This document shows, one piece after another, positions 3,981 through 63,613 of a stretch of 64,000 bases of DNA. Origin of the DNA: a virus. The notes under the pieces are model-generated. The model was not told the DNA's origin, made no database searches, and worked only from the letters and a program-made list of their open reading frames with translations. Numbering within the stretch: the stretch's first letter is position 1; every line of letters starts with the position of its first letter. The DNA lies in the IMG/VR virus record IMGVR_UViG_3300047325_000181, positions 4,855-68,854 of that record; one strand, 5' to 3'. The position numbers and the translations under genes are program-made.

Positions 3981-4009
3981 ATTGTAGCGCGCTGCTTTGG
4001 GGAAGTCAA
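3981..4009 (-). promoter_or_regulatory. Promoter with operator overlapping -10
   Basis: TTGACT-17-TACAAT; operator CAGCGCGCTA at 3985-3994. Confidence 0.85.
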
Positions 4010-4039
4010 GGGGCCAGCGGAGGAAAGACAAGTCCACGG

Positions 4040-4366
4040 GTGAAGGTCAGTGACGTGGTCGATGACACGCTCTTTTCGCTCGTCGCGAGCGAGGGTGACC
4101 TCATCACGAAGCTGGACCTCCTACGGGCGCCCGGCTACATCGTGCGGACCGAGCTTTCCCGGCCCGGCACCCTCGAAACACGGACCATCCGCGTCGAGCA
4201 GCCCCTCGACCTCGCGCGAACCATCACCGTCCTCGACCGCTACTTATCCCACCAGCAAGTCCTCGAAGTCATGGACGGATTCTCAGGCCTCGGACCCGAG
4301 TTTGCAGCCGCAATCGCAGAACTCAAGCTCCAGAGGTACGGTCTTGTCAGAGCCAGCGGACCCTAA
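4040..4366 (+). CDS. Hypothetical protein
   Basis: GTG start, genome-typical codons. Confidence 0.55.
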   Translation: MKVSDVVDDTLFSLVASEGDLITKLDLLRAPGYIVRTELSRPGTLETRTIRVEQPLDLARTITVLDRYLSHQQVLEVMDGFSGLGPEFAAAIAELKLQRYGLVRASGP

Positions 4367-4544
4367 ACGAAAGCCCCAGATTCGGTGGAAGCCCGAGTAC
4401 GTCGAGTTCCTCCGCAACCAGTATCCCTACCATACGACCGTCGAACTCAGCGAGATGATGGCCGAGACTTTTGACGTGAAGGTCTCGCCTTCGGCTGTCG
4501 GGTTCGTGATTTGGAAATCTCGCATCCCCAAGAAGCCCGCGTGA
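4344..4544 (+). CDS. Small HTH-like protein
   Basis: W.PEYVEFLRNQYPYHTTVELSEMMAETF pattern; TTG start inferred. Confidence 0.5.
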   Translation: MSEPADPKRKPQIRWKPEYVEFLRNQYPYHTTVELSEMMAETFDVKVSPSAVGFVIWKSRIPKKPA

Positions 4545-4903
4545 GGGCTGGCGCTGAAGCCGCCGGAAAGCGACGCCGTGCCGAGGACAAGATGCGCGAG
4601 GCCGCCCGCGGCCGGGACGGCGAGCACTGCCAGATGGAGACAGCCTCCGGCTCTGCTTGGATGGTCTGCAAGCGCCGGGCGACCCAGGCAGCGCACGTCT
4701 ACCGGCGCCGCGAGTGCGGCCGGGCAAAGTACGACCCCGACGTCGTCGTGATGGCTTGCGAGCCGTGCCACCGCTCCTACGACGACGACAGCCGCTACGA
4801 TGTCCGGGTGCGCCCCGAGCACGAGGAGCGGGCCTGGGCGGCCATCATTAAGGCCTCCAAGGTACTGCCGCCCCGCCAGACGCTCACGGGCCAGCGGGCA
4901 TGA
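4541..4903 (+). CDS. HNH-like (NinG/Rap-like) nuclease
   Basis: RDGEHCQ..C..ATQAAHVYRR..ACEPCH; GTGA overlap. Confidence 0.65.
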   Translation: MRAGAEAAGKRRRAEDKMREAARGRDGEHCQMETASGSAWMVCKRRATQAAHVYRRRECGRAKYDPDVVVMACEPCHRSYDDDSRYDVRVRPEHEERAWAAIIKASKVLPPRQTLTGQRA

Positions 4904-5097
4904 GCTTCCGGCAACCCTGGGAAGAGCAGCTTCAGAACATCGTCGACCGGGCTCAGAGGGGAGAGCCGCTCTGTCACATCACCCACATCGGGATGACGTG
5001 CGCTGAGTTCGACGCCTATGTTGCAGAAAAGAACGGAGATGGTATCATTGGGCTCCTCGGTCGAAACCACTATACCGCTCAGCGTCCTGGTCAGTGA
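4900..5097 (+). CDS. Hypothetical protein
   Basis: ATGA overlap, 65 aa. Confidence 0.5.
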   Translation: MSFRQPWEEQLQNIVDRAQRGEPLCHITHIGMTCAEFDAYVAEKNGDGIIGLLGRNHYTAQRPGQ

Positions 5098-5695
5098 GGA
5101 CGTCGCGGTCATCACCTTGCCGGTCGGCGACAAGTACCCGTCCCAGAACATGATTTTCGCGACCGGCGCACGGCGCGGGCCGAAGACGCGCGAGTACCTC
5201 GACCTCCGGCTCGCCGCGAAGACCGCCGGGGCAATTGTTGCCGCCCAGTGGGGAGCCATCAGTGTACCTTTGGGAATCAGTCTCACGCTCTACCAACAGA
5301 GCAACCGTTACCCTGACGCCTCGAATCTTGGAAAATGCGAACTCGACGGTCTTCAGGACGCTGGCCTCTTGGTCGACGATTCCCTGGTCCGACCAGCTAC
5401 GTTTCACGTGGAGCCGGGGACGCCGGGGCCGCGGCGGATGGTCTTGGTTCTCACGCGCCCGGCGGGTGCTCTTCGGATAGGAGCTTCGAGTGGAACACAA
5501 TCGGAACCTCAGTCACGCGCAGCCGGACGTCATCATGGCGTTCGGAAAACAGGAAGCCCTTCGGCATCTCAGCCCGCTGGCCGAAGAAAACGTGCCACCA
5601 AGGCCGCCGCGACCCGTGATGCGTTCGTTCACGACAAGCACCTCGCGGAATACCTCGCCGACAAGAAAGACGTCCTTCGCCGCATCGGTCGATAG
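5018..5695 (+). CDS. rusA: RusA-like Holliday junction resolvase with basic tail
   Basis: PDASNLGKCELDGLQDAGLLVDDSLV matches the D..N..K...D.L...G...DD signature; start uncertain. Confidence 0.8.
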   Translation: MLQKRTEMVSLGSSVETTIPLSVLVSEDVAVITLPVGDKYPSQNMIFATGARRGPKTREYLDLRLAAKTAGAIVAAQWGAISVPLGISLTLYQQSNRYPDASNLGKCELDGLQDAGLLVDDSLVRPATFHVEPGTPGPRRMVLVLTRPAGALRIGASSGTQSEPQSRAAGRHHGVRKTGSPSASQPAGRRKRATKAAATRDAFVHDKHLAEYLADKKDVLRRIGR

Positions 5696-5902
5696 ATACC
5701 GGCTCGACGCCCTCGCGGTCCTCCGCATTTGGTGGCTCCAGTTCTCCTCGTGGGCGAACCGTTTCTGGTGGCGCGATGTGCGCGGCCGGTGCCCCGACTA
5801 CGGGTGCCACCGCAAACTCATCCGCGCCTGGATGAAGCCCTACGGGTTTCCCGGCCGGACGTGCCCCCAGGACCATCACTTCTACCTCGAAGGAGCGCCC
5901 CG

Positions 5903-6547
5903 GTGGCACTGAAGCAGATTCCGGTCGGCCAGATAGAGCCGCACCCGAAGAACCCGAACTCGATGGCCCCGGACGCCTTTAAGAAGCTCCAACGCCACAT
6001 CGAGCGCACGAGCTTCTACCCGCCGGTCATCGTCCGGCCGCTCGACGACGGCCGGTACCAGATGATAGACGGCTGGCACCGCTACCTCATCGTGCGCGAC
6101 CACCTCAAGCGCGACAAGGTCGCAGCTATCGTGGCGGAGGTCTCCGAGACCGAAGCCGACATGATGCTCGCAACCCTGAACCGGCTCCACGGCGAGGACG
6201 ACCCGCGGGCGCGCGCGGAACTCGTGAGCGACCTCCTCCAAGAATATGGCTCGGTCGTGGCCCTAGCGGACCTGCTCCCGGAGTCTCAGACCGAAATCAA
6301 CACCATGCTCAAGAACCTAGAGAACGGGTTCGGCGGCGGCGATGAACCCGAGCCCGATGAGCCCGGCGAAAAGAAGAAGATGAAGCTCCAGTTCACCGCG
6401 GACCAGTGGCTGGTCATCGGTGAGGCGCTCTCTATCATCAAGCGACGTGCTGGCCTCGGAGAGAACGAAGTCGAACGGTGCTTCGAGTTCCTGGCGGCAG
6501 ACTGGCTCGGCGGCCAAGAGCGCGTCGAGAGCCGCAACCTGAACTAG
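5903..6547 (+). CDS. ParB/Srx N-terminal domain protein
   Basis: IEPHPKNPN..PVIVRP..YQMIDGWHRY; AGGAG SD before GTG. Confidence 0.85.
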   Translation: MALKQIPVGQIEPHPKNPNSMAPDAFKKLQRHIERTSFYPPVIVRPLDDGRYQMIDGWHRYLIVRDHLKRDKVAAIVAEVSETEADMMLATLNRLHGEDDPRARAELVSDLLQEYGSVVALADLLPESQTEINTMLKNLENGFGGGDEPEPDEPGEKKKMKLQFTADQWLVIGEALSIIKRRAGLGENEVERCFEFLAADWLGGQERVESRNLN

Positions 6548-6798
6548 TAGGACCGGGCGCGCTTCGCCTCGTGCTCGTCCGGGAAGAGCTTCCGGTGCTG
6601 ACGCTCGACGTAGTCACTGAAGAACTCGCGCTGCGTCACTCGCTTGCCCGTCTCTTCTTCCTTGGCGTCGAGCACCTCCGTGAGCATCTCCCACTGGCGC
6701 GCGCGCAAGTGGAGGCCGCGGCTGATGAGCCGTTCGTCCGGGGGGAGGGGCTTGCGGCCGGGTTGCAGCCGCTTCTTGCGGGGGGCCTTTGTGCTCAT
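6544..6798 (-). CDS. Small basic DNA-binding protein (ribbon-helix-helix-like), repressor candidate
   Basis: GRKPLP..SRGLHLRARQWEML..; own promoter carries the operator; leaderless start. Confidence 0.55.
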   Translation of the reverse strand: MSTKAPRKKRLQPGRKPLPPDERLISRGLHLRARQWEMLTEVLDAKEEETGKRVTQREFFSDYVERQHRKLFPDEHEAKRARSY

Positions 6799-6805: not shown

Positions 6806-6834
6806 ATCGTACGGTCAGCGCGCTGGCTTGTCAA
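6806..6834 (-). promoter_or_regulatory. Promoter with spacer operator, leaderless
   Basis: TTGACA-17-TACGAT, CAGCGCGCTG at 6816-6825, ATG 7 nt after -10. Confidence 0.85.
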
Positions 6835-6972: not shown

Positions 6973-7401
6973 TCATAGTTTTCCGAGTTTTCGGCCATAG
7001 AGTGCAGCTATCGCCTTGTCGACGACGGCCCCCTGGGAAATGGGAGGGTCGTAGGCGTCACAGAGTTCCTGGACCCGCTTGAAGGTCTCGGGTAGGATGG
7101 TGAAGCTCCGCCGGTCCCGATGCGGGCCGTGGGCCCGGTGTTTGAAGGCCGGGAGGGACTTGCCGGTCTGAAGGAAGCGCTCGTACTCCTCGAACGCCTC
7201 GGTAAGAGACCGAAGCTCGACGCCGCGCTCGCGGAGGAGGGCCGCAAACGTGGTGTAGGTCCGCGCCCGGCCCGGCCACTGCAACCCCTCGGACCCCATG
7301 AACTGGAAGACGTCCACGACCGCAGCCGAGGGCCGCGGCCTCGTCATACGCCACTTCAGCCATTGGGTAAAGGTCGGCCGTTCGACCGTTTCTGTCATCA
7401 T
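6973..7401 (-). CDS. YozE-like domain plus C-terminal RHH-like DNA-binding protein
   Basis: TFTQWL..AFEEYERF, then RSFTILPETFKRVQELC..SQGAVVDKAI. Confidence 0.5.
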   Translation of the reverse strand: MMTETVERPTFTQWLKWRMTRPRPSAAVVDVFQFMGSEGLQWPGRARTYTTFAALLRERGVELRSLTEAFEEYERFLQTGKSLPAFKHRAHGPHRDRRSFTILPETFKRVQELCDAYDPPISQGAVVDKAIAALYGRKLGKL

Positions 7402-7408: not shown

Positions 7409-7462
7409 AGTTTACCACGGGTGGCAATACCCGTTGACATTTACAGCGCGCTGGTGTATAGT
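7409..7462. promoter_or_regulatory. Divergent promoter pair with two palindromes
   Basis: Minus: CGTGGTAAACT then ATG after 7 nt. Plus: TTGACA-17-TATAGT then ATG after 6 nt. ACGGGT-N6-ACCCGT at 7417-7434 and CAGCGCGCTG at 7444-7453. Confidence 0.85.
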
Positions 7463-7468
7463 CGTGGC

Positions 7469-7864
7469 ATGATGGAAAGAAACTTTTCGGAAGTAATCCT
7501 CGACATAGCGCGTGTCTACGGCGAGCTTTCGCCGGAAAACCTCTACCGCGACGGTGAAGCCTCGCCCGCGGAGGTCGCTCGCGAGCGAGCGCGCCTCACC
7601 GAGAAGCTCGAAGCGCTCTTCGCTGAGAGAGGCAGCCCGCTCGAAGAGAACGAGGCATACGAGTTTGCCGCCCGTATCAGAAAGAGGCCCGAATGGAGCG
7701 CCGCTGACCGACTTTCGTGCGAAAGGTTCGAGCCGGGGAACCCCATCGCTCGCGGCAAGTCGCACGAGATGGCCGACGTCGGCCCTTACGAAGAGCCGCA
7801 CTGCATCTTCTGCGGCTGGCAGCGTGACGAAGATGACTACTCGCTGACGGGGTATCGCGGATGA
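7469..7864 (+). CDS. Hypothetical phage early protein
   Basis: LSPENLYRDGEAS motif; leaderless start. Confidence 0.7.
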   Translation: MMERNFSEVILDIARVYGELSPENLYRDGEASPAEVARERARLTEKLEALFAERGSPLEENEAYEFAARIRKRPEWSAADRLSCERFEPGNPIARGKSHEMADVGPYEEPHCIFCGWQRDEDDYSLTGYRG

Positions 7865-19798: not shown

Positions 19799-19827
19799 AT
19801 TGTATACCAGCGCGCTGGAAATGTCAA
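19799..19827 (-). promoter_or_regulatory. Early-type promoter with spacer operator inside tail operon
   Basis: TTGACA-TTTCCAGCGCGCTGGTA-TACAAT. Confidence 0.9.
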
Positions 19828-48425: not shown

Positions 48426-48501
48426 ATGGTAGCATAGCGCCGCCATAAAGTCAAGCGCCCAGGCTAAGCTGCTTGACATTTCCAGCGCGCTAGTGTAGAC
48501 T
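48426..48501. promoter_or_regulatory. Divergent early promoter pair
   Basis: Minus TTGACT-17-TACCAT (48454-48426); plus TTGACA-17-TAGACT (48473-48501) with operator 48483-48492, ATG 6 nt later. Confidence 0.85.
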
Positions 48502-49074: not shown

Positions 49075-49103
49075 TTGACATTTTTAGCGCGCTAGATTAT
49101 GAT
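49075..49103 (+). promoter_or_regulatory. Early promoter with operator
   Basis: TTGACA-TTTTTAGCGCGCTAGAT-TATGAT. Confidence 0.9.
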
Positions 49104-50434: not shown

Positions 50435-50634
50435 GCGAGGACAAAATGTGCCAGGTCGTCCGGTGCGCTCGCCCGGCCGACTGGGCCTGCCACCGGCCGC
50501 GGACCGGGACGCTCATCGGCTACTCGTGCCAGCAGCATCTCGGCGCGCTCGCCCAGCGCCACGCCGCCTTCCACTACGGTCTGGTCATCAAGGCGGTCGG
50601 AGAACTGCCGGACGGCCTCGTGCCCGGCGCTTGA
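50431..50634 (+). CDS. Small Cys-rich protein
   Basis: GTGA overlap. Confidence 0.55.
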   Translation: MSEDKMCQVVRCARPADWACHRPRTGTLIGYSCQQHLGALAQRHAAFHYGLVIKAVGELPDGLVPGA

Positions 50635-50659
50635 CATTTCCAGCGCGCTGGTTTAAGAT
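50631..50659 (+). promoter_or_regulatory. Early promoter with operator
   Basis: TTGACA-TTTCCAGCGCGCTGGTT-TAAGAT. Confidence 0.9.
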
Positions 50660-52428: not shown

Positions 52429-52456
52429 TCGACCCGCACCAAAGCCCTCTCCGGGC

Positions 52457-53515: not shown

Positions 53516-53529
53516 AATCGGCTCGTTTC

Positions 53530-53559
53530 TTGACAACACTAGCGCGCTGCCATTATCAT
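53530..53559 (+). promoter_or_regulatory. Promoter with operator
   Basis: TTGACA-18-TATCAT, TAGCGCGCTG at 53540-53549. Confidence 0.75.
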
Positions 53560-53640
53560 CATTTGACTTAACGGACCGGCGGCCCGCTTCCTCGGAATGA
53601 TAGCGAGTCGCAACGCACAGAGTCAAGGGGGCTCCCGAAA

Positions 53641-53949
53641 ATGATGACTTCGACAGACGACGACATGATGCGCTGGATAAAGCGCTTTCCCGGCTATTGC
53701 ACGTTTTGCAAGGGCGAAGGCGGCCACGAGTTTTACGAAAACCACGGTCTGCCGGGCCAAGGCGAGCGCCTCTTCGAGCCATGCGACGCGCTGCCCGAGT
53801 GCTACTGTCACCGCTGCGGCAAAGGCGACGCCGTCGACGTTGACCCGGCGGACGGGCAACCGGCGCCGTGTTCGTACTGCGGCTGGGCGAACGGGACCGG
53901 CGCCGACGACGTCATGCCGTCCCCGAGGTTCGTTCCCATCGACTTTTGA
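53641..53949 (+). CDS. Cys-rich protein
   Basis: Three CxxC pairs. Confidence 0.6.
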   Translation: MMTSTDDDMMRWIKRFPGYCTFCKGEGGHEFYENHGLPGQGERLFEPCDALPECYCHRCGKGDAVDVDPADGQPAPCSYCGWANGTGADDVMPSPRFVPIDF

Positions 53950-53975
53950 CTTCCGCCCAAGCAGCGCGCTATACT
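53946..53975 (+). promoter_or_regulatory. Promoter with operator overlapping -10, leaderless
   Basis: TTGACT-18-TATACT; ATG 7 nt later. Confidence 0.85.
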
Positions 53976-53982
53976 TGGGAAG

Positions 53983-54294: not shown

Positions 54295-54599
54295 AGCCCA
54301 TCGTGCTCGACTTCCGGTACGAGAACCGCAACCCGCACGACACGTACGCCCATAATTTCATCAGCCGCGGCGCCCCGGTCCCGGCGATGATATACGTGGT
54401 CGTGGTGGCCGCAGACTTCAGCGTGAGCGACGATGGCGTGACCCAGGCGACCATCCTGCCCCAAATCTTCGCAACCGAGGCCGAGGCGCGAGCCGTCGCC
54501 AAAGCGCTGCCGAGCGCGACCGGCGTCCTCGGCCTGGAGAGTCGCGTCCACTCCTTCAAGCTCGCCTTTGACTCTATCGAGGAGGCGCCGGTCTTCTAG
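54291..54599 (+). CDS. Hypothetical protein
   Basis: ATGA overlap. Confidence 0.6.
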   Translation: MKPIVLDFRYENRNPHDTYAHNFISRGAPVPAMIYVVVVAADFSVSDDGVTQATILPQIFATEAEARAVAKALPSATGVLGLESRVHSFKLAFDSIEEAPVF

Positions 54600-54614
54600 C
54601 CCAAGACCCTCGGC

Positions 54615-54830
54615 GTGACCAACGCCGAGTTCATCGCGTACTGTCAGGCGCGCGACGAGTGCCCCCGCAAGACCATCCTGGAGACCCCAGAAGGCCCCGT
54701 TGCCGAACTCAGCTTCCGCGACGGCACGGCCTTCTTTTTCTTTTGCGACGACCACATCGTCGAGGTGACCGGCCGCCAAGAAGTGACGGGGGTCCTCGTC
54801 CGGCACCGCCTCCAGGAGCCGATGAACTAG
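54615..54830 (+). CDS. Hypothetical protein
   Basis: GTG start. Confidence 0.5.
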   Translation: MTNAEFIAYCQARDECPRKTILETPEGPVAELSFRDGTAFFFFCDDHIVEVTGRQEVTGVLVRHRLQEPMN

Positions 54831-54839
54831 CCCTGCCTG

Positions 54840-54868
54840 TTGACATTTCCAGCGCGCTAGTTTACACT
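54840..54868 (+). promoter_or_regulatory. Early promoter with operator
   Basis: TTGACA-TTTCCAGCGCGCTAGTT-TACACT. Confidence 0.9.
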
Positions 54869-54888
54869 AGGGCTGGAGGTTGATTTTG

Positions 54889-55113
54889 ATGGCAGTGAAC
54901 AAGGACGGTCGGAAAATCGTGGAGTGCCGGGGATGCGGCCAGGGCCAGCTTGTCTGGGTCCAGGCGCAGAGCGGCAAGTGGTATCTGACCAGCTTCCTCG
55001 CCAAATACGGTCAGCGGAAGCCGCACCGTTGCCCGCGGCCGAGACAGGTCGCCGAAGAGCCGGGCCTGCCCGCCTACGACAATGCCGGTCCGAGCAGCCT
55101 GGAGTGGGAGTAG
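54889..55113 (+). CDS. Zinc-finger microprotein
   Basis: CRGCG..SGKWY..HRCP; GGAGG SD. Confidence 0.6.
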   Translation: MAVNKDGRKIVECRGCGQGQLVWVQAQSGKWYLTSFLAKYGQRKPHRCPRPRQVAEEPGLPAYDNAGPSSLEWE

Positions 55114-55124
55114 GCGCTGATTTT

Positions 55125-56693: not shown

Positions 56694-56704
56694 AAGGACC
56701 CTAG

Positions 56705-57304
56705 ATGACACTCGAAGACAGCCTGAACGAACTCGGCGCGGCGTTCCAAATCGCCCCGCTCGCGCACCGCGGCCAGACGCGCGCCGACGGCGTGACCCCC
56801 TACATCTTCCATCCGATGCGCGTCGAGCAACTCGTGGCCTTTTGGGGAGCCAAAGACTTGGACTTGCTTCCGTGGGAGCCGCGCACCGAGGAGCTTCTCC
56901 GTATGCGGGCCGCGGCGCTCATGCACGACGTCGTCGAGGACACGACGTATTCACTCGAAACGCTCGATGGGTTTGGCTTCAGTCACGAGCTTCTCGACCT
57001 CGTCGACCTGCTGACGAAACCCGACAACGGACCGGCCGGGCCGGACTACTACAAGCGCATCGCAACGAGCCGGGAAGCGCTCGTCGTCAAGTGCGCCGAC
57101 CGCTGCACGAACCTCGAAGACGCCATCAAAAGCGTCAAAGCGGGAGACGGCATCGAGCGCTGGCGGGCGTACGCCGAGAAGACGGAGCGTGATGTGCTCC
57201 CCCTCTACGAAGAAATCGAGTGGAGCGACCTCCACTGGGAACTCGTCGAACGGCTGACGTTCCTAAACTACGCCCTAGATGCGGTCAGCCGGGTCCGCCT
57301 TTAA
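56705..57304 (+). CDS. HD-domain hydrolase, RelA/SpoT (Mesh1/small alarmone hydrolase) type
   Basis: AHRGQTRADGVTPYIFHP..AAALMHDVVEDT..VKCADR..N. Confidence 0.85.
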   Translation: MTLEDSLNELGAAFQIAPLAHRGQTRADGVTPYIFHPMRVEQLVAFWGAKDLDLLPWEPRTEELLRMRAAALMHDVVEDTTYSLETLDGFGFSHELLDLVDLLTKPDNGPAGPDYYKRIATSREALVVKCADRCTNLEDAIKSVKAGDGIERWRAYAEKTERDVLPLYEEIEWSDLHWELVERLTFLNYALDAVSRVRL

Positions 57305-57586
57305 GGCGCTGACGTCGGCGCGCTTCAGTAGCTCCGTCCAGAGGTAGTCGTTGCGCTCACGCAGGCGCTCGATGTCCTCTTCCCGGAGCTTCACCTTGTC
57401 GCGCAGTGCCTCGTTCTCCGCGATACGGCCTTCCGCCAGCGACTGCCAAACGGCGGTCGCTTCGTGCATGTCCGCCACCCGCTTGTCACGGTAGCGAGCA
57501 ATCGTCGCAAGGACGGCCGCAACGGCGCCTCCGACCGACATGAGCGGCACGAGGAAGGCGTTGATGTACGGTGACAACTCGGGCAC
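57275..57586 (-). CDS. Single-TM coiled-coil protein, holin-like
   Basis: N-terminal TM then charged coiled coil. Confidence 0.5.
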   Translation of the reverse strand: MPELSPYINAFLVPLMSVGGAVAAVLATIARYRDKRVADMHEATAVWQSLAEGRIAENEALRDKVKLREEDIERLRERNDYLWTELLKRADVSALKADPADRI

Positions 57587-57604
57587 GGGCCTGTCCTCGC
57601 ATTA

Positions 57605-57826
57605 TTAGGAAGCGCTGCTAAGTACCACGTTCAGGCCCGGGGCAAGAAACTCTCTTTCTCCCTTGTCAACATCGCCTCGATGCGCTGGTTCGTGTACCAA
57701 ACCGAGATGAGGACACTGACGAGCGTGGCAATCATGCCGACGATGACATCCCCCGAACTGCAAATCGACGAGAAGGTGGCCATAAGTCAAACACTCCCCA
57801 AGAAACCAGAGTCTCGGAGTTCTCAA
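57605..57826 (-). CDS. Small Cys/His-rich protein
   Basis: CHRRHDCH..CPH. Confidence 0.45.
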   Translation of the reverse strand: MRTPRLWFLGECLTYGHLLVDLQFGGCHRRHDCHARQCPHLGLVHEPAHRGDVDKGEREFLAPGLNVVLSSAS

Positions 57827-57850
57827 TTCTGACTAACGAGTAGCAGTTCC

Positions 57851-58180
57851 CTACCCCGAGCGCCGCCCGATGTGCCAGCCGTGCTCCTTGCACGGGTACG
57901 GCGCCGCCCAGGACTCGTTCATGTCAAGGACGACCTGCCAGGCTTCATCATAGGTCGCGAAGGCGACCTTCGGGTTGCCGGTCTTCTTGTTGACGCACTG
58001 CGCGGTCGTCGTGATTTGGTGCCAGCACTGGTGCTTCTCGCACTTCCAGACGCGCGCAGCCACGCCCGCCGCCGCTTCCGCGTCGTCGCGCGCCGCATAC
58101 GAAATGAGGTGGTCGCAGTCGGGCTCTACCTGGAGCTTCCGAAAGCGGGCCCAGTCACGAAACCTTTTTGCCGGGACCAT
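57851..58180 (-). CDS. Protein with duplicated Y..C..H..WH motif
   Basis: WKCEKHQCWH and YPCKEHGWH. Confidence 0.55.
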   Translation of the reverse strand: MVPAKRFRDWARFRKLQVEPDCDHLISYAARDDAEAAAGVAARVWKCEKHQCWHQITTTAQCVNKKTGNPKVAFATYDEAWQVVLDMNESWAAPYPCKEHGWHIGRRSG

Positions 58181-58547
58181 TGACGCATTCCATTGCATGA
58201 CGCCCGGTATGCTTGTAGTCCAAGCAGAAGCTGCAAATGCGGAAATAGTCCGCCAGCATCATTGCGAAGTTCGCAACATCAGCGCACTCGCATGCGACGG
58301 CCTCGGCTTGCGCGGCGTCGGGAAACGCCTCCCAGGACTCGTTCATCTTCGCAATGGCCTCCTGAAGCTCGACGAACTCTTCGCGCAGACGGGCGATGAG
58401 GTACGGAGCCGTTATCTTCAGGTCGAGCCAGTGCCCCTTGTGGAGATTCTTCAGCATCTTGAAGCGCATGACTTCCGTGATGTAAGCGAGCGCTTCGTCG
58501 ACGTCGTCGGCCGTAACCGGCGTGTCGGCTATCCGTGATGTACTCAT
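58155..58547 (-). CDS. MazG-like nucleotide pyrophosphohydrolase
   Basis: LREEFVELQEA..ECADVANFAMML; preceded by CGTGGTATACT and GGAGG. Confidence 0.75.
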   Translation of the reverse strand: MSTSRIADTPVTADDVDEALAYITEVMRFKMLKNLHKGHWLDLKITAPYLIARLREEFVELQEAIAKMNESWEAFPDAAQAEAVACECADVANFAMMLADYFRICSFCLDYKHTGRHAMECVNGPGKKVS

Positions 58548-58635
58548 GGGTCCTCCGTAAGTCAAAGTATACCACGGCCATCAAGGAAGGTCTAGGAGTG
58601 AACGAAGTCGGAGTTACTCACAGGACGCTTGCTAG

Positions 58636-60189
58636 TTGAGGTCTTCGTTTTTGGGCAACTCCCAAACACGTCGCGCGACACCTGAAGAGGTCATGTCCCT
58701 CTTTGAGAAGTGCGGCGATTCTGCGCTCATCGCCAAGAAGTTGGGGCTGAGCCGCAGTCGAGTCAACCGCATCATCGCGGACTACCGGGCCAAGCATGGC
58801 CTGCCGAAAGAGACGATGTACGCGAGCGGCGTCAGTGACGCGGCTCTCCTGCGCGCCCACGATGAAACCGGCCAAGACGTCGCGCTCACCGCGAAAGCCG
58901 TCGGCCTCTCGTATTCGCAAGTTCACCGGCGCCTCACGCGCATCCGGCTGGCAGGCGGCTCCTCGGCTCGCCCGCACATCTTCGAGGCCGACCCGGCAAG
59001 CGACAAGCCGAACCGCGTCGACGGCGTCCGCGAGCGCGCGGGTGTTCCGCTCGATGCCATCCGGCGCGTCACCGGCGGAACGCTGCGCGAGTGGGGCGTG
59101 GCCATCAAGAACAAGGACGGCGAGTTCGAGGAGCACGGGCTCTACGGCACGACCCTCAAGTTCACGGTCGACACGCCCGAGTTTCCGCTCATCCAGCCCG
59201 CGACGCCGACCAAAATCGTCTACAACAAAGTCCCGCGCATCCTGCGCAAAGTGCATCAGGGCCTCATCATCAGCGACGCGCAAATCGGCTACCTGCGCGG
59301 CATCCAGTCCGGCCTGCTCGATACGATTCACGACCCGCGCGCGATGGAAGTGGCCCGGCAAATCACCGGCACCATCGCCCCCGAGTTCCTCGGCTTTATC
59401 GGCGACTGGGTCGACTTCTCGTGGATTTCACGCTGGACGAAGCAGCCCGAGTTCTTCGGCATCGCGCAGCCCTCGATTCAGGCCGGGTACGAGTGGAAGG
59501 CGCGCTTCATCGCCGCGGCACCGCAGAGCGCCCGAAAGATGGAGATAGGCTCGAACCATCAGGTCCGGCCCGACAAGTTCGTCCTCGAATACAATCGCGA
59601 GTCGCTCGGTCTCACGCGCGCGCGACGCCCCGGCGACCAGGGACCAGAGTGGCATGTCTTCTCCGAACAGTTCCTCTGCCGGTACGACGAACTCGGCGTC
59701 GAGTTTAGCGGCCAGTATCCCGGCGGCGAGTTCTTCGTGACGCCGGACCTGGCGCTCATGCATGCGCCTCCGAAGAAGTCCGAGTTCAACGCGAGCGTGA
59801 TTCACGGGCACACCCATAAGCTCGGCAACGCGACGACCCACGTCACGCACGATAACGCCGGACGCCACGAGTACGCGACCTGGGACACGGGATGCCTGTG
59901 CCGGACGGACGCGACGACCGACAAGCGCCGCCTCATGGTCACGGCCGTGCCGTCCGACCGCGGGCGCACCGACTGGCTCCAGGGCATCATCCATTTCGAG
60001 TGGATGGAGTACGGCGGCGGGACCAAGCACCAGATTCACCCGATTCACATTTTCGACGGCCACGCGCTCTATCAGGGCGACAGCTATGACGTGGCCAAAG
60101 ACTTCGACGAGGGCATCCTCGCGAACGGCTACGGGTACGAAACGAAGCCTAGTCGAGTCCCGGTTGCGAGCCCTGCTTCACGCCCGTAA
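58636..60189 (+). CDS. Calcineurin-like metallophosphoesterase with two N-terminal HTH-like domains
   Basis: ISDAQ, GDWVD, GSNH, MH, IHGHTH, TGCLC motifs. Confidence 0.8.
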   Translation: MRSSFLGNSQTRRATPEEVMSLFEKCGDSALIAKKLGLSRSRVNRIIADYRAKHGLPKETMYASGVSDAALLRAHDETGQDVALTAKAVGLSYSQVHRRLTRIRLAGGSSARPHIFEADPASDKPNRVDGVRERAGVPLDAIRRVTGGTLREWGVAIKNKDGEFEEHGLYGTTLKFTVDTPEFPLIQPATPTKIVYNKVPRILRKVHQGLIISDAQIGYLRGIQSGLLDTIHDPRAMEVARQITGTIAPEFLGFIGDWVDFSWISRWTKQPEFFGIAQPSIQAGYEWKARFIAAAPQSARKMEIGSNHQVRPDKFVLEYNRESLGLTRARRPGDQGPEWHVFSEQFLCRYDELGVEFSGQYPGGEFFVTPDLALMHAPPKKSEFNASVIHGHTHKLGNATTHVTHDNAGRHEYATWDTGCLCRTDATTDKRRLMVTAVPSDRGRTDWLQGIIHFEWMEYGGGTKHQIHPIHIFDGHALYQGDSYDVAKDFDEGILANGYGYETKPSRVPVASPASRP

Positions 60190-60439
60190 ACCAGGCGCAG
60201 ATGTGCGAGACGACCGTCGGCGTCTTGATGGAGAACACGAGCCCGCACTTGTGATGCTCGTAGTCTGAGACGAACTGGTTGTAGTCGACCGGCTCGTACG
60301 TGCCGTCGTACTGGTTCTTGTACGACGAGTAGTAGTTCTGCTGCACGGCGGTCGAGCACGGGAAGAACGCGAAGCAGAGCGCGACGACGGCGCCCGCAAG
60401 CGCTGCGCTAGAAGTTGACGCTCGCCGTGAGCGTGACAT
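60149..60439 (-). CDS. Possible exported small protein
   Basis: Signal-like hydrophobic segment; overlaps neighbours. Confidence 0.35.
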   Translation of the reverse strand: MSRSRRASTSSAALAGAVVALCFAFFPCSTAVQQNYYSSYKNQYDGTYEPVDYNQFVSDYEHHKCGLVFSIKTPTVVSHICAWFTGVKQGSQPGLD

Positions 60440-61499
60440 CCTGGCCATCCGTATGCGTGATGCCGACCGAATAGGTGCCGTTATCGAAGGTGACGTTCAC
60501 GCTCTGCACGAGCGCTGAGACGCTCACGACAAGCTGGCCGTCGAGGTCCTTCGCGGTCGCGCTCGGGTCGCTCGCAACCTTGGCAAGAATGCCCGCGGCG
60601 ATGGCGTTGATGTCGGCATTCGAGGGGTTGACGGTGAGGCTCATCGGTGTGAAGTCCAGTCCCATCGCAGCGCCGGGCTCGAACATGAGGCCCGGCTTGT
60701 CGCCGCAGAGGTCGCGGTAGAAACAGGCCGCGGCGTACTCGGCACGAGCGCCCCGCGACTTCTCCCAACCCTTCAGGAAGTAGACGAAGTCCACCCTTCC
60801 CACCGCGCGCAAATCCCACTTCATCATGCGGCGTATGAAGTTCTGGCGCGCGACCGGGTTCTTCTTAAAGAGTGTCGCGAGCGGAGATTCATCGTCGGCC
60901 GGGTCAAGACCAGCCTCCCGGTCGTGGTCGGCTGGCGAAAGCACCTTGAACCCTAATTTGGAGAGCCTGTCTCGGGCTGCGTCAAACGCAGGGAAATTGA
61001 GTAGCTCGTAACCGGACATCGGCCCGGCTAGGTACAGAAGCGGCTGCTTCGATGGCTCGCGATGCTCGTCCAAGTAGTCAAGCATTTGCGCCAAGACCTC
61101 GGGGTCTTCGCGCAACATTCCCAACGAGCGATTGCAGCGCATGCACAGAAGGCCGCGAATCTTCCCGTTTTCGTGGTCATGGTCGACCGCTAGAGGCAGT
61201 CTTTTGTACTGATTTCGAGCAGTTTCGCCGTGCCAGCAAATCGCGCAGACACCGCCCTGCTGTTCGAGTAAGGCATCGTATTCTGCTGGCGTCATGCCAT
61301 GAGACGCCCTAAGATTCATGCGCCGAAGCTCGCCCGGCGCTCGCTGACGTCGCTCTCGATGATAAGTCGCGTTCGCGTCCTTGCATGGCCGACAGCGACA
61401 GCCGAGACGATACGTTGCCATAAGACCGTGGGCGGCATCGTGCGCTGCTAGGCGCTTACTGAGCCGGTCCCAGAAGGTCTTCTCGGAGTTCATCCCCAT
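60408..61499 (-). CDS. Endonuclease VII-like domain fused to DUF4406 (nucleoside deoxyribosyltransferase-like) and a C-terminal beta-rich domain
   Basis: YDALLEQQGGVCAIC..LAVDHDH..RGLLCMRCN; LYLAGPMSG..NFPAF..GWEKSRGARAE. Confidence 0.85.
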   Translation of the reverse strand: MGMNSEKTFWDRLSKRLAAHDAAHGLMATYRLGCRCRPCKDANATYHRERRQRAPGELRRMNLRASHGMTPAEYDALLEQQGGVCAICWHGETARNQYKRLPLAVDHDHENGKIRGLLCMRCNRSLGMLREDPEVLAQMLDYLDEHREPSKQPLLYLAGPMSGYELLNFPAFDAARDRLSKLGFKVLSPADHDREAGLDPADDESPLATLFKKNPVARQNFIRRMMKWDLRAVGRVDFVYFLKGWEKSRGARAEYAAACFYRDLCGDKPGLMFEPGAAMGLDFTPMSLTVNPSNADINAIAAGILAKVASDPSATAKDLDGQLVVSVSALVQSVNVTFDNGTYSVGITHTDGQDVTLTASVNF

Positions 61500-61657
61500 C
61501 AGTACGAGGGCCCCGTGAAGCGCTTTTCAACGCCGCATCCGCGGTCGCACGTAAAGATGCGGCAGAGGACCGTGTAGCCGGTCCAGCCGTCCTCGACCGT
61601 GTAGTCGGCGCGACGCCACTTCCCACGATGCAGCCCGAGGCGGCAGAGGATACTCAT
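61499..61657 (-). CDS. 52-aa Cys/His microprotein
   Basis: MSILCRLGLH..W; manual translation. Confidence 0.55.
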   Translation of the reverse strand: MSILCRLGLHRGKWRRADYTVEDGWTGYTVLCRIFTCDRGCGVEKRFTGPSY

Positions 61658-61842
61658 TCCCAGTCGACCGGCCCCGTCGTCGAGAACGCGAGCCAGCCGG
61701 ACGAGACGAGCGTCTTCACGCCGTCCGAGTCGATGTGGCCGACCGTGCCGTCTTCGAGCCGAATCGTCTTCACGACGTTGGGCACCTCGATGACGTTGCC
61801 GGTGCCGAAATCGTAGGAAAAGGTCGGGAGCTTCTCAGCCAC
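61654..61842 (-). CDS. Hypothetical protein
   Basis: GTG start, coupled. Confidence 0.55.
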   Translation of the reverse strand: MAEKLPTFSYDFGTGNVIEVPNVVKTIRLEDGTVGHIDSDGVKTLVSSGWLAFSTTGPVDWE

Positions 61843-62071
61843 GGTTCCTCTTTCGTGACGCCTTCTCGATGGCGCGCTTCTTGCGTTTGGTATTCTCGCG
61901 TAATTTCGTCGGCATTTGCTGGCCAAACGCGCGCGGGCCGGTCGCCTTGCGGGGAGCAAAGAGCGACGCCAGGAGCGGCGGAAGCGGAGCGGGCGGCTCT
62001 AACTGGGGATTGAGGCCGCCGCCAAAGCTCGACGGGTCGACGAGTTGGGTGGTCTCTTCCATTACGTCCAT
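61835..62071 (-). CDS. Small basic protein
   Basis: C-terminal KRKKRAIEKASRKRNR. Confidence 0.55.
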   Translation of the reverse strand: MDVMEETTQLVDPSSFGGGLNPQLEPPAPLPPLLASLFAPRKATGPRAFGQQMPTKLRENTKRKKRAIEKASRKRNRG

Positions 62072-62166
62072 TCTCCGTCGTGCTCCCTAGAAAAGTCAAG
62101 GGGCCAACGGGACGAACCCGCTAACCCCTTGGCCGCTTGCAGCCGCTACTGCTTGACTCGCTATTC

Positions 62167-62871
62167 CTACAGGATGGGCGTTCCACCCTGCGGCTTGAGC
62201 AACGCCGCGAACTGGTCGACGCGCGCGGCGAGGTTCTTGCCGTACAGCAGCGCGTCCCCGCGAGCGATAGCGTCGAGCGTTCCCTCGCGGCCCTCGTTGT
62301 AGGCATTGAAGGCGACGACACGGGGCGCATAGTCCCTGAGTTGCTCTTTCGAGAGGGTGAGTGACCAGGCGAGAAGCCCTTCGGCGGTCGCCACGAGGTC
62401 TTTGATGGCCCACTCCGGGTCGAGGGCCTTCGCTATCATCTCGTCCTGCGTGAGACCGGCCATGCCCGGGTGTCCGCTCATGTAGAGCCCGTCGATTTGC
62501 ACGAGCCCGTAGTCGGTCCGCTCGAACACGTTCGGCTTCTTCTCGGCCTCCTGGTTGTTCGGGTTGATGGCTTGCGCGTCGAAGAGCGACTCGCCGCATA
62601 TCCAGGCCGCAAGCATCGGCCGGTTCACGAAGAGCGTTCCGTACTCGCTGATGAGCGCGTCGATATGCGCAGCCTGGGCGGACGTCACGAGATGGATGAC
62701 GGCGCCGGACGCCTTCACCCACGAGTCGACTGCAAAGGCAGCGATGACCGCGGGATTGTTCTTGATGGCGATAAGCTCGGGCAGCGTGAGCGGACCGCCG
62801 CCGTTACGTATCAAGCCCCAGTGCCAGTCGCACTGTTCGAGTTGCTGGATGGTGAGGTGCGTGGCGCTCAT
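62167..62871 (-). CDS. Lytic transglycosylase (SLT/lysozyme-like), possible second endolysin
   Basis: CGESLFDAQAIN..TDYGLVQI..AYNEG. Confidence 0.8.
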   Translation of the reverse strand: MSATHLTIQQLEQCDWHWGLIRNGGGPLTLPELIAIKNNPAVIAAFAVDSWVKASGAVIHLVTSAQAAHIDALISEYGTLFVNRPMLAAWICGESLFDAQAINPNNQEAEKKPNVFERTDYGLVQIDGLYMSGHPGMAGLTQDEMIAKALDPEWAIKDLVATAEGLLAWSLTLSKEQLRDYAPRVVAFNAYNEGREGTLDAIARGDALLYGKNLAARVDQFAALLKPQGGTPIL

Positions 62872-63299
62872 CGCTTACGCCGCGTGGCCTTCTTGACGGG
62901 GCGCTTTTTCTCGCCGGTCAGCCGCTCCGGTAACGGCTCGTAGGCGCGGAAGTCGTAGGCCTCGTCCTCGACCGCGACGGCGAACGCGAGCCGCGTGAGC
63001 GCGTTCCAGAGATGGCGCTCGCTGCGGTCGCCCATCATGTACTTGTAGATGTGGATGAGCGCATGCCGAAGCTGCTCGTTGAGCGGAATACGGCGCCAGT
63101 TATTGCGGCTGTACTTTTGGGCCCCGGCGCCGACGACGGCGGAGATGGCCAGGAGCGCTTCGGCCGGAACGAGGTCGGGCGCGAGGGTGCCGGTGCTGCT
63201 CTGCGCGCCGCCGTGCGCACCGACGACGGTCGGGGCGACGCCGTCCGCAGTCTCGTCGATGAGGCGGCGGACGGCGGCCGGGACGGGGAACTCGCCCAC
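62868..63299 (-). CDS. dATP/dGTP diphosphohydrolase-like (DUF5664)
   Basis: DLVPAEALLAISAVVGAGAQKYSRNNWRR..HALIH..HLWNA. Confidence 0.8.
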   Translation of the reverse strand: MGEFPVPAAVRRLIDETADGVAPTVVGAHGGAQSSTGTLAPDLVPAEALLAISAVVGAGAQKYSRNNWRRIPLNEQLRHALIHIYKYMMGDRSERHLWNALTRLAFAVAVEDEAYDFRAYEPLPERLTGEKKRPVKKATRRKR

Positions 63300-63523
63300 T
63301 AGGCGCTGGTCACGGTGGTCGGGCTCAGGTTAAACGAGGCCGTGAACGGCTTCCCGTAGACGCTGAGCGGGAACGCCACGCTGGCAGCGCCACCGGACGC
63401 GGCCGAGGCGAGAGCGGTCTCGATTTGAGGCACGATGACCTCGATGTCCTGGACGACGACGTTCTTCCCGGCGATGGCCTGAAGAAGCGTAAGGGCAAGG
63501 GCGATGAGTTCCTGGGTCGACAC
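63299..63523 (-). CDS. Small hydrophobic protein
   Basis: N-terminal hydrophobic helix; GAGGA SD. Confidence 0.5.
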   Translation of the reverse strand: MSTQELIALALTLLQAIAGKNVVVQDIEVIVPQIETALASAASGGAASVAFPLSVYGKPFTASFNLSPTTVTSA

Positions 63524-63583
63524 GATAGCGAGGTCCTCTCGGGAAGAAGTGGTCCTCCAAGTCTACCTTACCGGAGGCCTGAC

Positions 63584-63613
63584 TTGCAAGCAGCGCGCTG
63601 GATATGGTAGCAT
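63584..63613 (+). promoter_or_regulatory. Promoter with operator, leaderless
   Basis: TTGCAA-18-TAGCAT, CAGCGCGCTG at 63591-63600, ATG 6 nt later. Confidence 0.75.

What the first reader, a model, noticed from the sequence alone, without database searches (positions are those of the whole stretch)
3985..63600. Eleven-copy palindromic operator YAGCGCGCTR built into sigma70 promoters
Seen at 3985, 6816, 7444, 19808, 48483, 49085, 50641, 53540, 53962, 54850 and 63591, each between a TTGACA/TTGACT/TTGCAA -35 and a TAnnnT -10 with 17-18 nt spacing. Most are in mid-spacer (TTGACA-TTTCCAGCGCGCTRG..). Two (3985, 53962) overlap the -10. A degenerate copy is at 48435. Inferred: one phage regulator shuts off the whole early programme through dispersed sites, similar in logic to mycobacteriophage stoperators but promoter-embedded.
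Basis: partly seen in the sequence, partly recalled or inferred. Interest (0 to 1): 0.75.

Follow-up and report, generated by a model that had tools for sequence, protein, structure and literature searches.

The report
Palindromic operator inside twelve phage promoters
An uncultured 63% G+C phage from moss metagenomes carries the same 10-bp palindrome inside the spacer of its twelve strongest host-type promoters, most likely the docking site of one small phage-encoded regulator: a familiar kind of circuit in an unstudied phage lineage.

Summary
YAGCGCGCTR occurs 11 times in the window (0.58 expected). A twelfth copy lies 90 nt left of the window in the 73.3-kb contig. All 12 lie in the 11% of the genome that is non-coding, each inside a TTGACA/TTGACT/TTGCAA-N17/18-TAnnnT promoter. 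One-mismatch variants (11) fall in coding DNA like background.

The palindrome takes four different registers relative to the -35 and -10 boxes. It keeps its sequence where its flanks change in relatives. A phage with a 57%-identical neighbouring protein has it in the equivalent divergent promoter. A 40% relative keeps only the GCGCGC core, at the same register, in five promoters. More distant relatives carry a different palindrome (CCTAGCTAGG) there.

The best reading (about 0.6) is an operator for a small phage-encoded dimeric regulator. The leading candidate is the 84-aa product of 6544-6798. It sits behind one of these promoters and models as a ribbon-helix-helix-like homodimer, but it matches no Pfam family. 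Binding, the sign of regulation and the binder's identity are all unshown.

The stoperator analogy fails on its defining features; P22 Arc/Mnt and phiC31 repressor sites are closer. This scan has already noted several such phage operator regulons on other DNA. The finding is real and tidy, and moderately interesting.

The parts
3981..4009 (-). Promoter TTGACT-N17-TACAAT. The motif at 3985-3994 overlaps the -10. It heads the leftward 3308-3847 / ERF / DUF1376 / DnaB block.
6806..6834 (-). Promoter TTGACA-agc-CAGCGCGCTG-accg-TACGAT. Motif at 6816-6825. The ATG lies 7 nt after the -10 (leaderless). It drives the 84-aa gene alone.
6544..6798 (-). 84-aa basic protein, the leading candidate binder. 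It models as a homodimer with an antiparallel strand at residues 24-32 plus two helices (ribbon-helix-helix-like).
   Evidence: ipSAE 0.68 against a best control of 0.00; MetJ-like lead; 30%-identical positional orthologue in L095. No Pfam hit.
6973..7401 (-). 142-aa protein, the second candidate. It has an N-terminal four-helix (YozE/SAM-like) domain and a C-terminal strand-helix-helix-like segment. It has 4 homologues in 1.8 billion representative proteins.
7409..7434 (-). Own promoter of 6973-7401: TGg-TAAACT extended -10, with the ATG 7 nt downstream. It has no YAGCGCGCTR. It is overlapped by a single-copy inverted repeat, ACGGGT-N6-ACCCGT (7417-7434).
   Evidence: read from the sequence; (the inverted repeat is unique in the window)
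7434..7462 (+). Promoter TTGACA-ttta-CAGCGCGCTG-gtg-TATAGT. Motif at 7444-7453. Leaderless ATG at 7469. It is divergent from 6973-7401. Similarity to relative L090 breaks at 7459.
19799..19827 (-). Promoter TTGACA-tttc-CAGCGCGCTG-gta-TACAAT. Motif at 19808-19817. It heads an inserted DUF6011 + GDSL-lipase cassette inside the virion-gene block. It is a 57-nt near-duplicate of the copy at window -90.
48426..48454 (-). Promoter TTGACT-N17-TACCAT at the head of the long leftward (virion) gene block. Its motif is degenerate (GGCGGCGCTA, 48435-48444), with only one half-site kept.
48473..48501 (+). Promoter with motif at 48483-48492. Leaderless ATG at 48508.
49075..49103 (+). Promoter with motif at 49085-49094 (TAGCGCGCTA). 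In relative L092 the flanking T is a C, which makes a perfect 12-mer palindrome.
50631..50659 (+). Promoter with motif at 50641-50650. The downstream gene at 50678 has a Shine-Dalgarno leader.
53530..53559 (+). Promoter TTGACA-N18-TATCAT with motif at 53540-53549. It is divergent from the motif-less promoter 53597-53626(-).
53946..53975 (+). Promoter TTGACT-N18-TATACT. The motif at 53962-53971 overlaps the -10. Leaderless ATG at 53983 (DUF6011 protein).
54840..54868 (+). Promoter with motif at 54850-54859. It heads the 54886/54924-57304 block.
63584..63613 (+). Promoter TTGCAA-N18-TAGCAT with motif at 63591-63600. Leaderless ATG at 63620.

Best explanation
YAGCGCGCTR is most likely the operator of one small, dimeric, phage-encoded DNA-binding protein.

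How it would work (inferred): the palindrome sits between the -35 and -10 boxes of 12 near-consensus host-sigma promoters, or on the -10 in two of them. A bound protein would therefore compete with or stall RNA polymerase and regulate these transcription units together, most likely by repression.

What the units encode: the recombination/replication block (a 179-aa protein, ERF, a DUF1376 initiator and DnaB), many small early proteins, nucleotide-metabolism genes and an inserted DUF6011/lipase cassette.

Likely binder (inferred): the 84-aa product of 6544-6798. It is transcribed alone and leaderless from one of the operator promoters, which is the geometry of negative autoregulation. It models as a ribbon-helix-helix-like dimer. 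One such dimer inserts a two-stranded sheet into a single major groove, which fits an 8-10 bp palindrome better than a helix-turn-helix dimer would. The neighbouring 142-aa protein is the second candidate. Its gene lies back-to-back with an operator promoter, and its own promoter lacks the operator.

Shown: the sites, their positions, their conservation and the dimer model.
Inferred: binding, the sign of regulation and the identity of the binder.
For: 1. Twelve exact copies lie only in the non-coding 11% of the contig, all inside promoters. One-mismatch variants are distributed like background.
2. The 10-mer sits 1, 3, 4 or 9-10 nt after the -35, with unrelated flanks. It is therefore separable from the promoter scaffold.
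3. Relatives keep the 10-mer while its flanks change.
   - L006 has TTGACA-aaaa-CAGCGCGCTA-gta-TATCTT at a non-orthologous place.
   - L090 has changed flanks at the 7444 site.
   - L094, with a 57%-identical neighbouring protein, has TTGACA-act-CCAGCGCGCTG-atgt-TATACT in the equivalent divergent promoter.
4. The element differs between lineages.
   - The 40% relative L095 keeps only GCGCGC, at the same spacer register, in five promoters, including the promoter of its own 87-aa orthologue.
   - L097 and L100 carry TAGCTAGG / CCTAGCTAGG in that position instead.
5. The full pattern with its promoter occurs only at chance level in 596 Gb of prokaryote genomes (17 single hits, none in a plausible host cluster) and in metagenomes. 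It is not a widespread host regulatory site.
6. The 84-aa protein homodimer model scores ipSAE 0.68 against a best control of 0.00.
   - That mark was reached by 21 of 30 proteins solved as pairs of one chain and by 0 of 23 solved as single chains.
   - The runs agree in at least 94% of contacts, and the partner's pLDDT is at least 71.
   - Residues 24-32 pair antiparallel about G28, with helices 35-46 and 56-72 in the interface.
   - The pass may reflect likeness to solved ribbon-helix-helix dimers.
7. The L095 orthologue keeps the central G-L-H-L of that strand but changes the outer residues (S26A, R27Y, R32S). Its operators keep the central GCGCGC and lose the outer arms. This is a correlation from two lineages only.
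Against: - There are no binding or expression data. No RNA run holds the phage.
- Neither candidate matches any Pfam family, including RHH_1 even at E up to 10. Neither matches any solved structure by sequence.
- The monomer fold of the 84-aa protein came out all-helical.
- A single 10-bp site per promoter is short. Known ribbon-helix-helix repressors usually need two or more adjacent sites.
- In L095 only GCGCGC is conserved. That hexamer is common there (33 copies in 10 kb) and common here (163 copies). On its own it cannot be a specific operator.
- Eight of the 12 sites, and all but one of the L095 sites, share one register, which would also fit an element intrinsic to the promoter.
- The family is so rare (two members of the 84-aa family, five of the 142-aa family) that protein-site covariation cannot be tested statistically.
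Confidence: 0.6

Rival explanations
1. The GC core is a promoter-intrinsic spacer element. An alternating GCGCGC tract at a fixed distance from -35 and -10 would tune promoter strength, supercoiling sensitivity or recognition by the host holoenzyme or a polymerase-bound factor. No free-standing repressor would be involved.
For: - The same register (GCGCGC starting at spacer position 7) is found in 8 of 12 promoters here and in four of the five L095 promoters, despite about 40% protein identity between the phages.
- In L095 only the hexamer is conserved.
- The head promoter of the virion block keeps just the -10-proximal half.
Against: - In this phage the conserved unit is a 10-bp palindrome, not just a GC tract.
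- It works at four registers, including on top of the -10.
- Other good promoters in the same genome lack it (53597-, 2434-, the promoter of 6973-7401).
- More distant relatives have a different, AT-containing palindrome at the same place.
- No such spacer element is known for sigma-70/SigA holoenzymes (my own knowledge).
Confidence: 0.15
2. The pattern is a copied promoter cassette. One strong promoter would have spread through the genome by duplication and recombination, as with morons and module junctions, and the palindrome would simply have been carried along without a function of its own.
For: - The copies at -90 and 19808 are 57-nt near-duplicates that include the ribosome-binding site and the first codons.
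- Six of the 12 promoters share TTGACATTTCCAGCGCGCT.
- The promoters coincide with indel and mosaic junctions in L006, L090 and L092.
Against: - Apart from that one pair, the flanks outside -35..-10 are unrelated.
- The 10-mer also occurs in promoters with different spacers and registers (6816, 3985/53962, 63591), and in relatives with other flanks.
- Twelve of 12 exact copies with no decayed ones, plus dyad symmetry, are not expected of a passenger sequence.
Confidence: 0.1
3. The palindrome is the binding site of a host transcription factor. The phage would have recruited it to tie its early promoters to a host signal.
For: - No phage protein with a recognised DNA-binding family lies next to the sites, apart from an HTH_23 domain in the 517-aa phosphoesterase.
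- The host is unknown, so its regulon cannot be inspected.
Against: - The promoter-plus-palindrome pattern is at chance level in one genome from each of 185,579 species.
- Related phages of similar G+C use different spacer elements, as expected of phage-specific regulators.
Confidence: 0.1

Closest known systems
Salmonella phage P22 immI: the Arc and Mnt ribbon-helix-helix repressors at Pant (from my own knowledge: Sauer laboratory work)
   Same: - Small phage repressors act on a sigma-70 promoter.
- The Arc operator lies between -35 and -10.
- The repressor gene is transcribed from the promoter it represses.
- Two small regulators are encoded side by side.
- The predicted dimer of the 84-aa protein has the strand-helix-helix topology.
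   Different: - Arc and Mnt control one promoter region through 17-21 bp operators bound by tetramers.
- Here a single 10-bp palindrome is repeated in 12 promoters across 73 kb.
- There is no sequence or Pfam similarity.
- No antirepressor is evident.
Streptomyces phage phiC31 repressor (gene c) and its conserved inverted repeats (from my own knowledge: Smith laboratory, 1990s; these papers are not in the searchable library)
   Same: - One phage protein and many dispersed palindromic sites are associated with a set of similar early promoters in a high-G+C phage.
- The logic is the same: one regulator for the early programme.
   Different: - The phiC31 sites are 17 bp long and are bound by large helix-turn-helix repressor isoforms.
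- The phiC31 early promoters are not sigma-70 consensus.
- phiC31 is temperate and has an integrase.
- None of these features is found here.
Cluster A mycobacteriophage (L5, Bxb1, TipsytheTRex) repressor and stoperators (PMC9283540, PMC6550527)
   Same: Many copies of one short site are spread over a phage genome of an apparently leaderless-mRNA-using, high-G+C host. One regulator is presumed.
   Different: - Stoperators are 13-14 bp and asymmetric. They are oriented with transcription and mostly lie outside promoters.
- They stop elongation and are read by a monomeric two-domain repressor (PMC9283540 abstract).
- The sites here are palindromic and all lie inside promoter spacers.
Cluster O mycobacteriophages (Corndog): 17-bp palindrome TGTTCGG-N3-CCGAACA together with SigA-like, leaderless promoters (PMC4351075)
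   Same: An actinophage-style genome with 8-9 strong SigA-like promoters, leaderless first genes and an invariant dispersed palindrome of unknown binder.
   Different: In Cluster O the more than 30 palindromes are separate from the promoters, and many lie inside or at the ends of genes. Here the palindrome and the promoter are one unit.
E. coli MetJ and its 8-bp palindromic metbox AGACGTCT (from my own knowledge)
   Same: An 8-bp palindrome of the form AG-NNNN-CT is read by one ribbon-helix-helix dimer. The language-model look-alike search put a MetJ cluster among the nearest named neighbours of the 84-aa protein (score 0.91).
   Different: - Metboxes act in tandem arrays of 2-5 with a corepressor.
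- Here there is one site per promoter.
- No detectable homology.

Membership tests
Sigma-70/SigA-type promoter | -35 close to TTGACA, -10 TAnnnT, spacer 16-18 nt, located upstream of a gene | tested here: met
   All 12 sites meet this. Promoter-like sites number 10 against 1.4 in shuffles in 47500-64000. In five of them the start codon lies 6-7 nt after the -10 (leaderless geometry). No transcription start site data exist.
Classical operator (repressor site overlapping a promoter) | Dyad-symmetric site overlapping the polymerase footprint, more conserved than its surroundings | tested here: met
   The 10-bp palindrome is exact in 12 of 12 copies. Its per-column information content is at least as high as that of most -35 columns. 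Its flanks vary.
Classical operator (repressor site overlapping a promoter) | A cognate protein binds the site | not testable with these tools
   There are no protein-DNA modelling or wet-lab data. The candidates are named by position and fold only.
Cluster A stoperator system | Asymmetric 13-14 bp site with orientation tied to the direction of transcription | tested here: not met
   The site is a perfect palindrome.
Cluster A stoperator system | Most sites lie outside promoters, within or between genes of long operons | tested here: not met
   All 12 of 12 sites lie inside -35/-10 promoters.
Cluster A stoperator system | Monomeric helix-turn-helix immunity repressor, plus an integrase or partition system | tested here: not met
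   The 73 kb has no Phage_integrase or Resolvase match. The only HTH_3 match is weak and lies in a 517-aa enzyme. The contig is about 80% complete, so absence is not proven.
Ribbon-helix-helix (Arc/MetJ/CopG) repressors | Sequence-profile membership (Pfam RHH_1 and related families) | tested here: not met
   No hit was found, even at E up to 10. There are no PDB sequence hits either.
Ribbon-helix-helix (Arc/MetJ/CopG) repressors | Intertwined homodimer in which N-terminal strands pair antiparallel and are followed by two helices | tested here: inconclusive
   The homodimer model scores ipSAE 0.68 against a best control of 0.00. That mark was reached by 21 of 30 proteins solved as pairs of one chain and by 0 of 23 solved as single chains. 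The runs agree in at least 94% of contacts, and the partner's pLDDT is at least 71. Strand 24-32 pairs about G28, and helices 35-46 and 56-72 lie in the interface. This is a model only and may reflect memory of solved dimers. The monomer model was all-helical.
Ribbon-helix-helix (Arc/MetJ/CopG) repressors | Operators made of two or more adjacent sub-sites bound cooperatively | tested here: not met
   There is one 10-bp palindrome per promoter. The nearest second site is the degenerate copy 48 bp from 48483.

The most novel reading that the evidence does not exclude
The binder would be a composite reader with two parts. A ribbon-helix-helix sheet would read a minimal GC palindrome. Basic AT-hook-like N-terminal arms would read the AT-rich -35-proximal T-tract and the -10 box on either side. 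The arm motif is PGRKP here and PRGRP in the L095 orthologue. Such a protein would recognise 'a promoter with a GC core' rather than a long operator. That would explain three things: why 6-10 bp is enough, why the register is conserved between phages with only 30-40% protein identity, and why the element is confined to promoters although GCGCGC is common in the genome.
Probability: 0.15. Interest if true: 0.6.

Novelty: new variant of a known kind. Interest (0 to 1): 0.4.

Why it matters
If the reading holds, a single short palindrome gives a nearly complete map of the host-polymerase transcription units of an uncultured phage about 90-98 kb long, probably with a contractile tail. It also gives a directly testable regulator-operator pair from protein families that have no annotated relatives. 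The promoters are compact and near-consensus and share a common 10-bp control site, so they could serve as a switchable promoter set for high-G+C hosts. The promoters coincide with indel and mosaic junctions in relatives, which fits the idea that shared regulatory sequences are places where phage modules are exchanged. Conceptually this is the same kind of circuit as P22 Arc/Mnt or the phiC31 repressor sites, and this scan has already noted several such regulons on other DNA. It therefore adds breadth rather than a new principle.

Tried and rejected
- Phage collection. Megablast and tblastn against the GenBank phage collection found nothing. No named relative or annotated host is available.
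- Pattern scans. I scanned for TTGACA-N4-motif-N3-TAnnnT.
  - IMG/VR gave 2 contigs; only L006 is a relative.
  - 596 Gb of species genomes gave 17 single hits, which is the number expected by chance.
  - Metagenomes gave 51 single hits. About half are one unrelated locus of a common gut bacterium, and none is related to this phage.
- Early-gene relatives. The early 589-aa protein has only about 30%-identical relatives in jumbo phages, which is no use for promoter comparison.
- Homologue searches.
  - The 84-aa protein finds only itself and the L095 orthologue.
  - The 142-aa family finds nothing in IMG/VR.
- The 97,990-bp relative. I tried to read the rest of this contig. Further look-ups returned only short contigs.
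- RNA evidence. No RNA holder is listed. The runs that hold at least about 40% of the sampled words are moss metagenomes plus two runs of a coded 'organism A'.
- Structure.
  - The AlphaFold monomer of the 84-aa protein was all-helical, with pLDDT 72, and is uninformative.
  - Foldseek on the 142-aa model gave only a weak YozE/UPF0346 match (E 1.4).
  - PDB sequence searches were empty.
- Literature. A full-text search for AGCGCGCT returned nothing relevant. The phiC31 papers are not in the library.
- Restriction-site reading. I considered and rejected the idea that the motif is a restriction or methylation target under avoidance. GCGCGC (163 copies) and AGCGCT (54 copies) occur at the expected frequency.
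- Second inverted repeat. I considered and rejected ACGGGT-N6-ACCCGT as a second regulon. It is single-copy.

Full report
**What the DNA is.** The window is bases 4855-68854 of a 73,308-bp IMG/VR viral contig. CheckV estimates it to be 80% complete, and its G+C is 63%.
- The runs that hold at least about 40% of the sampled words of 48000-56000 are moss metagenomes plus two runs of a coded 'organism A'.
- The GenBank phage collection holds no relative at megablast or tblastn level.
- My own codon-usage gene map gives 109 genes and 89% coding.
- Pfam and PHROG scans show a long leftward virion and lysis block, roughly 48.4 kb down to 8.5 kb. It includes baseplate J and a sheath initiator (seen in a near-identical contig) and an amidase.
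- This block is flanked by two arms of early-type genes. They include DnaB, DUF1376, ERF, a RusA-like protein, ParB_N, SSB, an HD hydrolase, an endonuclease VII-DUF4406 protein, a dGTP diphosphohydrolase-like protein and many small Cys-rich proteins.
- No tyrosine or serine recombinase and no cI-type repressor are present in the 73 kb.

YAGCGCGCTR occurs 11 times in the window against 0.58 expected. It occurs 12 times in the contig.
- All 12 copies lie in the 11% of the contig that is non-coding.
- The 11 one-mismatch variants lie in or next to coding sequence, like background. The set is therefore sharply bounded, with no halo of decayed copies.
- The hexamer GCGCGC is common (163 copies, as expected). 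The motif is therefore not a by-product of restriction-site avoidance, although GATC (0 copies, 271 expected) and GCCGGC (0 copies, 91 expected) are clearly avoided.
- Every copy lies inside a -35/N17-18/-10 promoter. Every perfect TTGACA-N17/18-TAnnnT in non-coding DNA carries it.
- Five of the 12 promoters have the start codon 6-7 nt after the -10 (leaderless geometry). Five have a GGAGG leader, and two have long leaders.

**Is the palindrome an element of its own?** Several observations say yes.
- It takes four registers.
  - It starts 4 nt after the -35 in eight promoters.
  - It starts 3 nt after the -35 at 6816.
  - It starts 9-10 nt after the -35 at 3985 and 53962, where its last TA is the first TA of the -10.
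  - It starts 1 nt after TTGCAA at 63591.
- Outside the -35..-10 block the twelve loci are unrelated. The exception is the pair at -90 and 19808, which share 57 nt.
- The promoter that heads the virion block (48426, minus strand) keeps only one half-site. The promoter of gene 6973-7401 and a few other good promoters (53597-, 2434-, 2343+, 58594-) lack the motif. The palindrome is therefore not needed for promoter identity.

**Relatives.** The public data hold only a few.
- L090 is part of a 97,990-bp ENA contig that is 91-99% identical.
  - It keeps the four sites it covers.
  - At the 7444 site the flanks differ (tttc...acg-TATTAT) while the 10-mer is intact.
  - Similarity breaks at 7459, just after the motif, where a different first gene follows.
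- L092 has a mosaic junction just upstream of the 49085 promoter. One flank change there makes a perfect 12-mer, CTAGCGCGCTAG.
- L006 and L035 are parts of a 31-kb IMG/VR contig about 70-80% identical in the virion genes.
  - It lacks the 19799 promoter together with the two genes behind it.
  - It has its own TTGACA-aaaa-CAGCGCGCTA-gta-TATCTT promoter where the window has an extra gene.
- L094 encodes a 57%-identical homologue of the 142-aa protein. It has TTGACA-act-CCAGCGCGCTG-atgt-TATACT, leaderless, in the equivalent divergent position.
- L095 is syntenic with the window (155 aa, 87 aa, ParB, RusA) and is a 40% homologue.
  - Five of its promoters carry GCGCGC. In four it starts at the same spacer register as here, and the outer arms are not conserved.
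  - One of the five is the promoter of the 87-aa orthologue of the window's 84-aa gene.
- L097 and L100 are 33-40% homologues. They carry TAGCTAGG / CCTAGCTAGG in the spacer instead.
- So -35 and -10 stay constant while the spacer palindrome is lineage-specific. That is what a phage-specific regulator predicts.
- The full pattern occurs only at chance level in 596 Gb of species genomes and in metagenomes. This argues against a widespread host site.

**Candidate binders.**
- The 84-aa gene (6544-6798) is transcribed alone from operator promoter 6806.
  - Its product is basic.
  - A homodimer model scores ipSAE 0.68 against a best control of 0.00. That mark was reached by 21 of 30 proteins solved as pairs of one chain and by 0 of 23 solved as single chains. 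The runs agree in at least 94% of contacts, and the partner's pLDDT is at least 71.
  - In the model, residues 24-32 pair antiparallel about G28 and two helices pack across the interface. That is the ribbon-helix-helix layout, though the pass may come from likeness to solved dimers.
  - Against this, no Pfam family matches, including RHH_1 at E up to 10. No PDB sequence matches. The monomer model is uninformative.
  - The L095 orthologue keeps G-L-H-L at the centre of the strand and changes the outer residues. Its operators keep the central GCGCGC and lose the outer arms. The parallel is suggestive, but it rests on two lineages.
- The 142-aa protein (6973-7401) has a confidently modelled N-terminal four-helix domain.
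  - That domain gives a weak YozE/UPF0346 match.
  - Its C-terminus has a strand-helix-helix-like sequence pattern.
  - Its own promoter is an extended -10 (TGg-TAAACT), leaderless, without the palindrome. It is overlapped by a unique ACGGGT-N6-ACCCGT repeat and stands back-to-back with operator promoter 7434.
- I put the 84-aa protein at about 45%, the 142-aa protein at about 25%, another phage protein at about 15%, and no dedicated phage binder at about 15%.

**Mechanism.**
- Shown: the sites, the promoters and the conservation pattern.
- From established knowledge: a protein bound between -35 and -10, or on the -10, interferes with holoenzyme binding or open-complex formation. A single major-groove reader suits an 8-10 bp dyad, whereas helix-turn-helix dimers need half-sites about 10 bp apart.
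- Inferred: coordinate repression of about 12 units, with negative autoregulation of the 84-aa gene.
- Unknown: whether this serves lysogeny (no integrase was seen, and the contig is incomplete) or early shut-off in a lytic cycle.

**Comparison with known systems.** The stoperator analogy fails each defining feature tested (PMC9283540, PMC6550527). Closer systems are listed here.
- P22 Arc/Mnt at Pant has its operator between -35 and -10 and is autoregulated.
- The phiC31 repressor has dispersed inverted repeats.
- Cluster O mycobacteriophages have an invariant palindrome plus SigA-like leaderless promoters, but there the two are not fused (PMC4351075).
- Earlier notes of this scan describe several phage regulons on other DNA with a palindrome in the promoters and a ribbon-helix-helix regulator. 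None is related in sequence to this one.

**Verdict.** The feature is real, clean and statistically unambiguous. Its most likely meaning, a phage-encoded regulator's operator, is of a known kind, carried by unannotated protein families. Interest is moderate.

Noticed in passing
whole contig (window 1-64000 and flanks): GATC is absent (271 expected by a Markov estimate). GCCGGC is absent (91 expected) and GGCGCGCC is absent (7 expected). This points to strong restriction-site avoidance, and so to host restriction systems with these specificities.
   Followed up: partly
window 18710-19827 compared with L006 2179-2269: The 19799 promoter and the two genes behind it are missing from the 70-80% relative L006, so they form a moron-like insertion inside the tail-gene block. 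The genes are a DUF6011 protein (19330-19794) and a GDSL lipase/esterase (18710-19333), which might be a LysB-like lysis accessory.
   Followed up: partly
window 26071-26841 compared with L006 8352-8474: The window has an extra Cys/His-rich gene (256 aa). At that place the relative L006 has only a motif-bearing promoter followed by a hairpin. Promoter cassettes and small genes swap at the same junctions.
   Followed up: partly
window 7459-7704 compared with L090: In the 97,990-bp near-identical contig, similarity stops about 6 nt after the palindrome of promoter 7434 and resumes at 7704. The first gene of the unit (131 aa here) is replaced by a 56-aa gene. The promoter acts as a recombination boundary.
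   Followed up: partly
window 7417-7434: A single-copy inverted repeat, ACGGGT-N6-ACCCGT, lies in the spacer of the extended -10 promoter of gene 6973-7401 and touches the -35 of the divergent promoter 7434. It may be a second, private operator.
   Followed up: partly
window 19330-19794 and 53983-54294: Two DUF6011 paralogues each lie directly behind a motif promoter.
   Followed up: no
contig 4373-4750 (just left of the window) and window 19330-19794: The gene behind the twelfth motif copy (contig 4373-4750) shares only the promoter, the ribosome-binding site and the first codons with 19330-19794.
   Followed up: no
L038 423-497 (contig 69222-69296, about 370 nt right of the window): A tRNA-Met (CAT) gene (ARAGORN). 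No tRNA gene lies in the window itself.
   Followed up: yes
L095 3847-3911, 5866-5900, 9742-9770, 10085-10111: In a distant relative (30-40% protein identity), five promoters carry GCGCGC in the spacer; in four of them it starts at spacer position 7. The N-terminal arm of its 87-aa orthologue contains PRGRP, the AT-hook core. The window protein has PGRKP at that place.
   Followed up: partly
L097 3354-3383 and L100 1612-1641: More distant homologues of the 142-aa gene are transcribed from TTGACA-N18 promoters whose spacers hold a different palindrome (TAGCTAGG / CCTAGCTAGG).
   Followed up: no
window 62097-62131 (minus strand): A strong 15-bp-stem terminator-like hairpin is followed at once by a promoter-like site (62099-62070, TTGACT-N18-GAGAAT) inside the leftward block of the right arm.
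   Followed up: no
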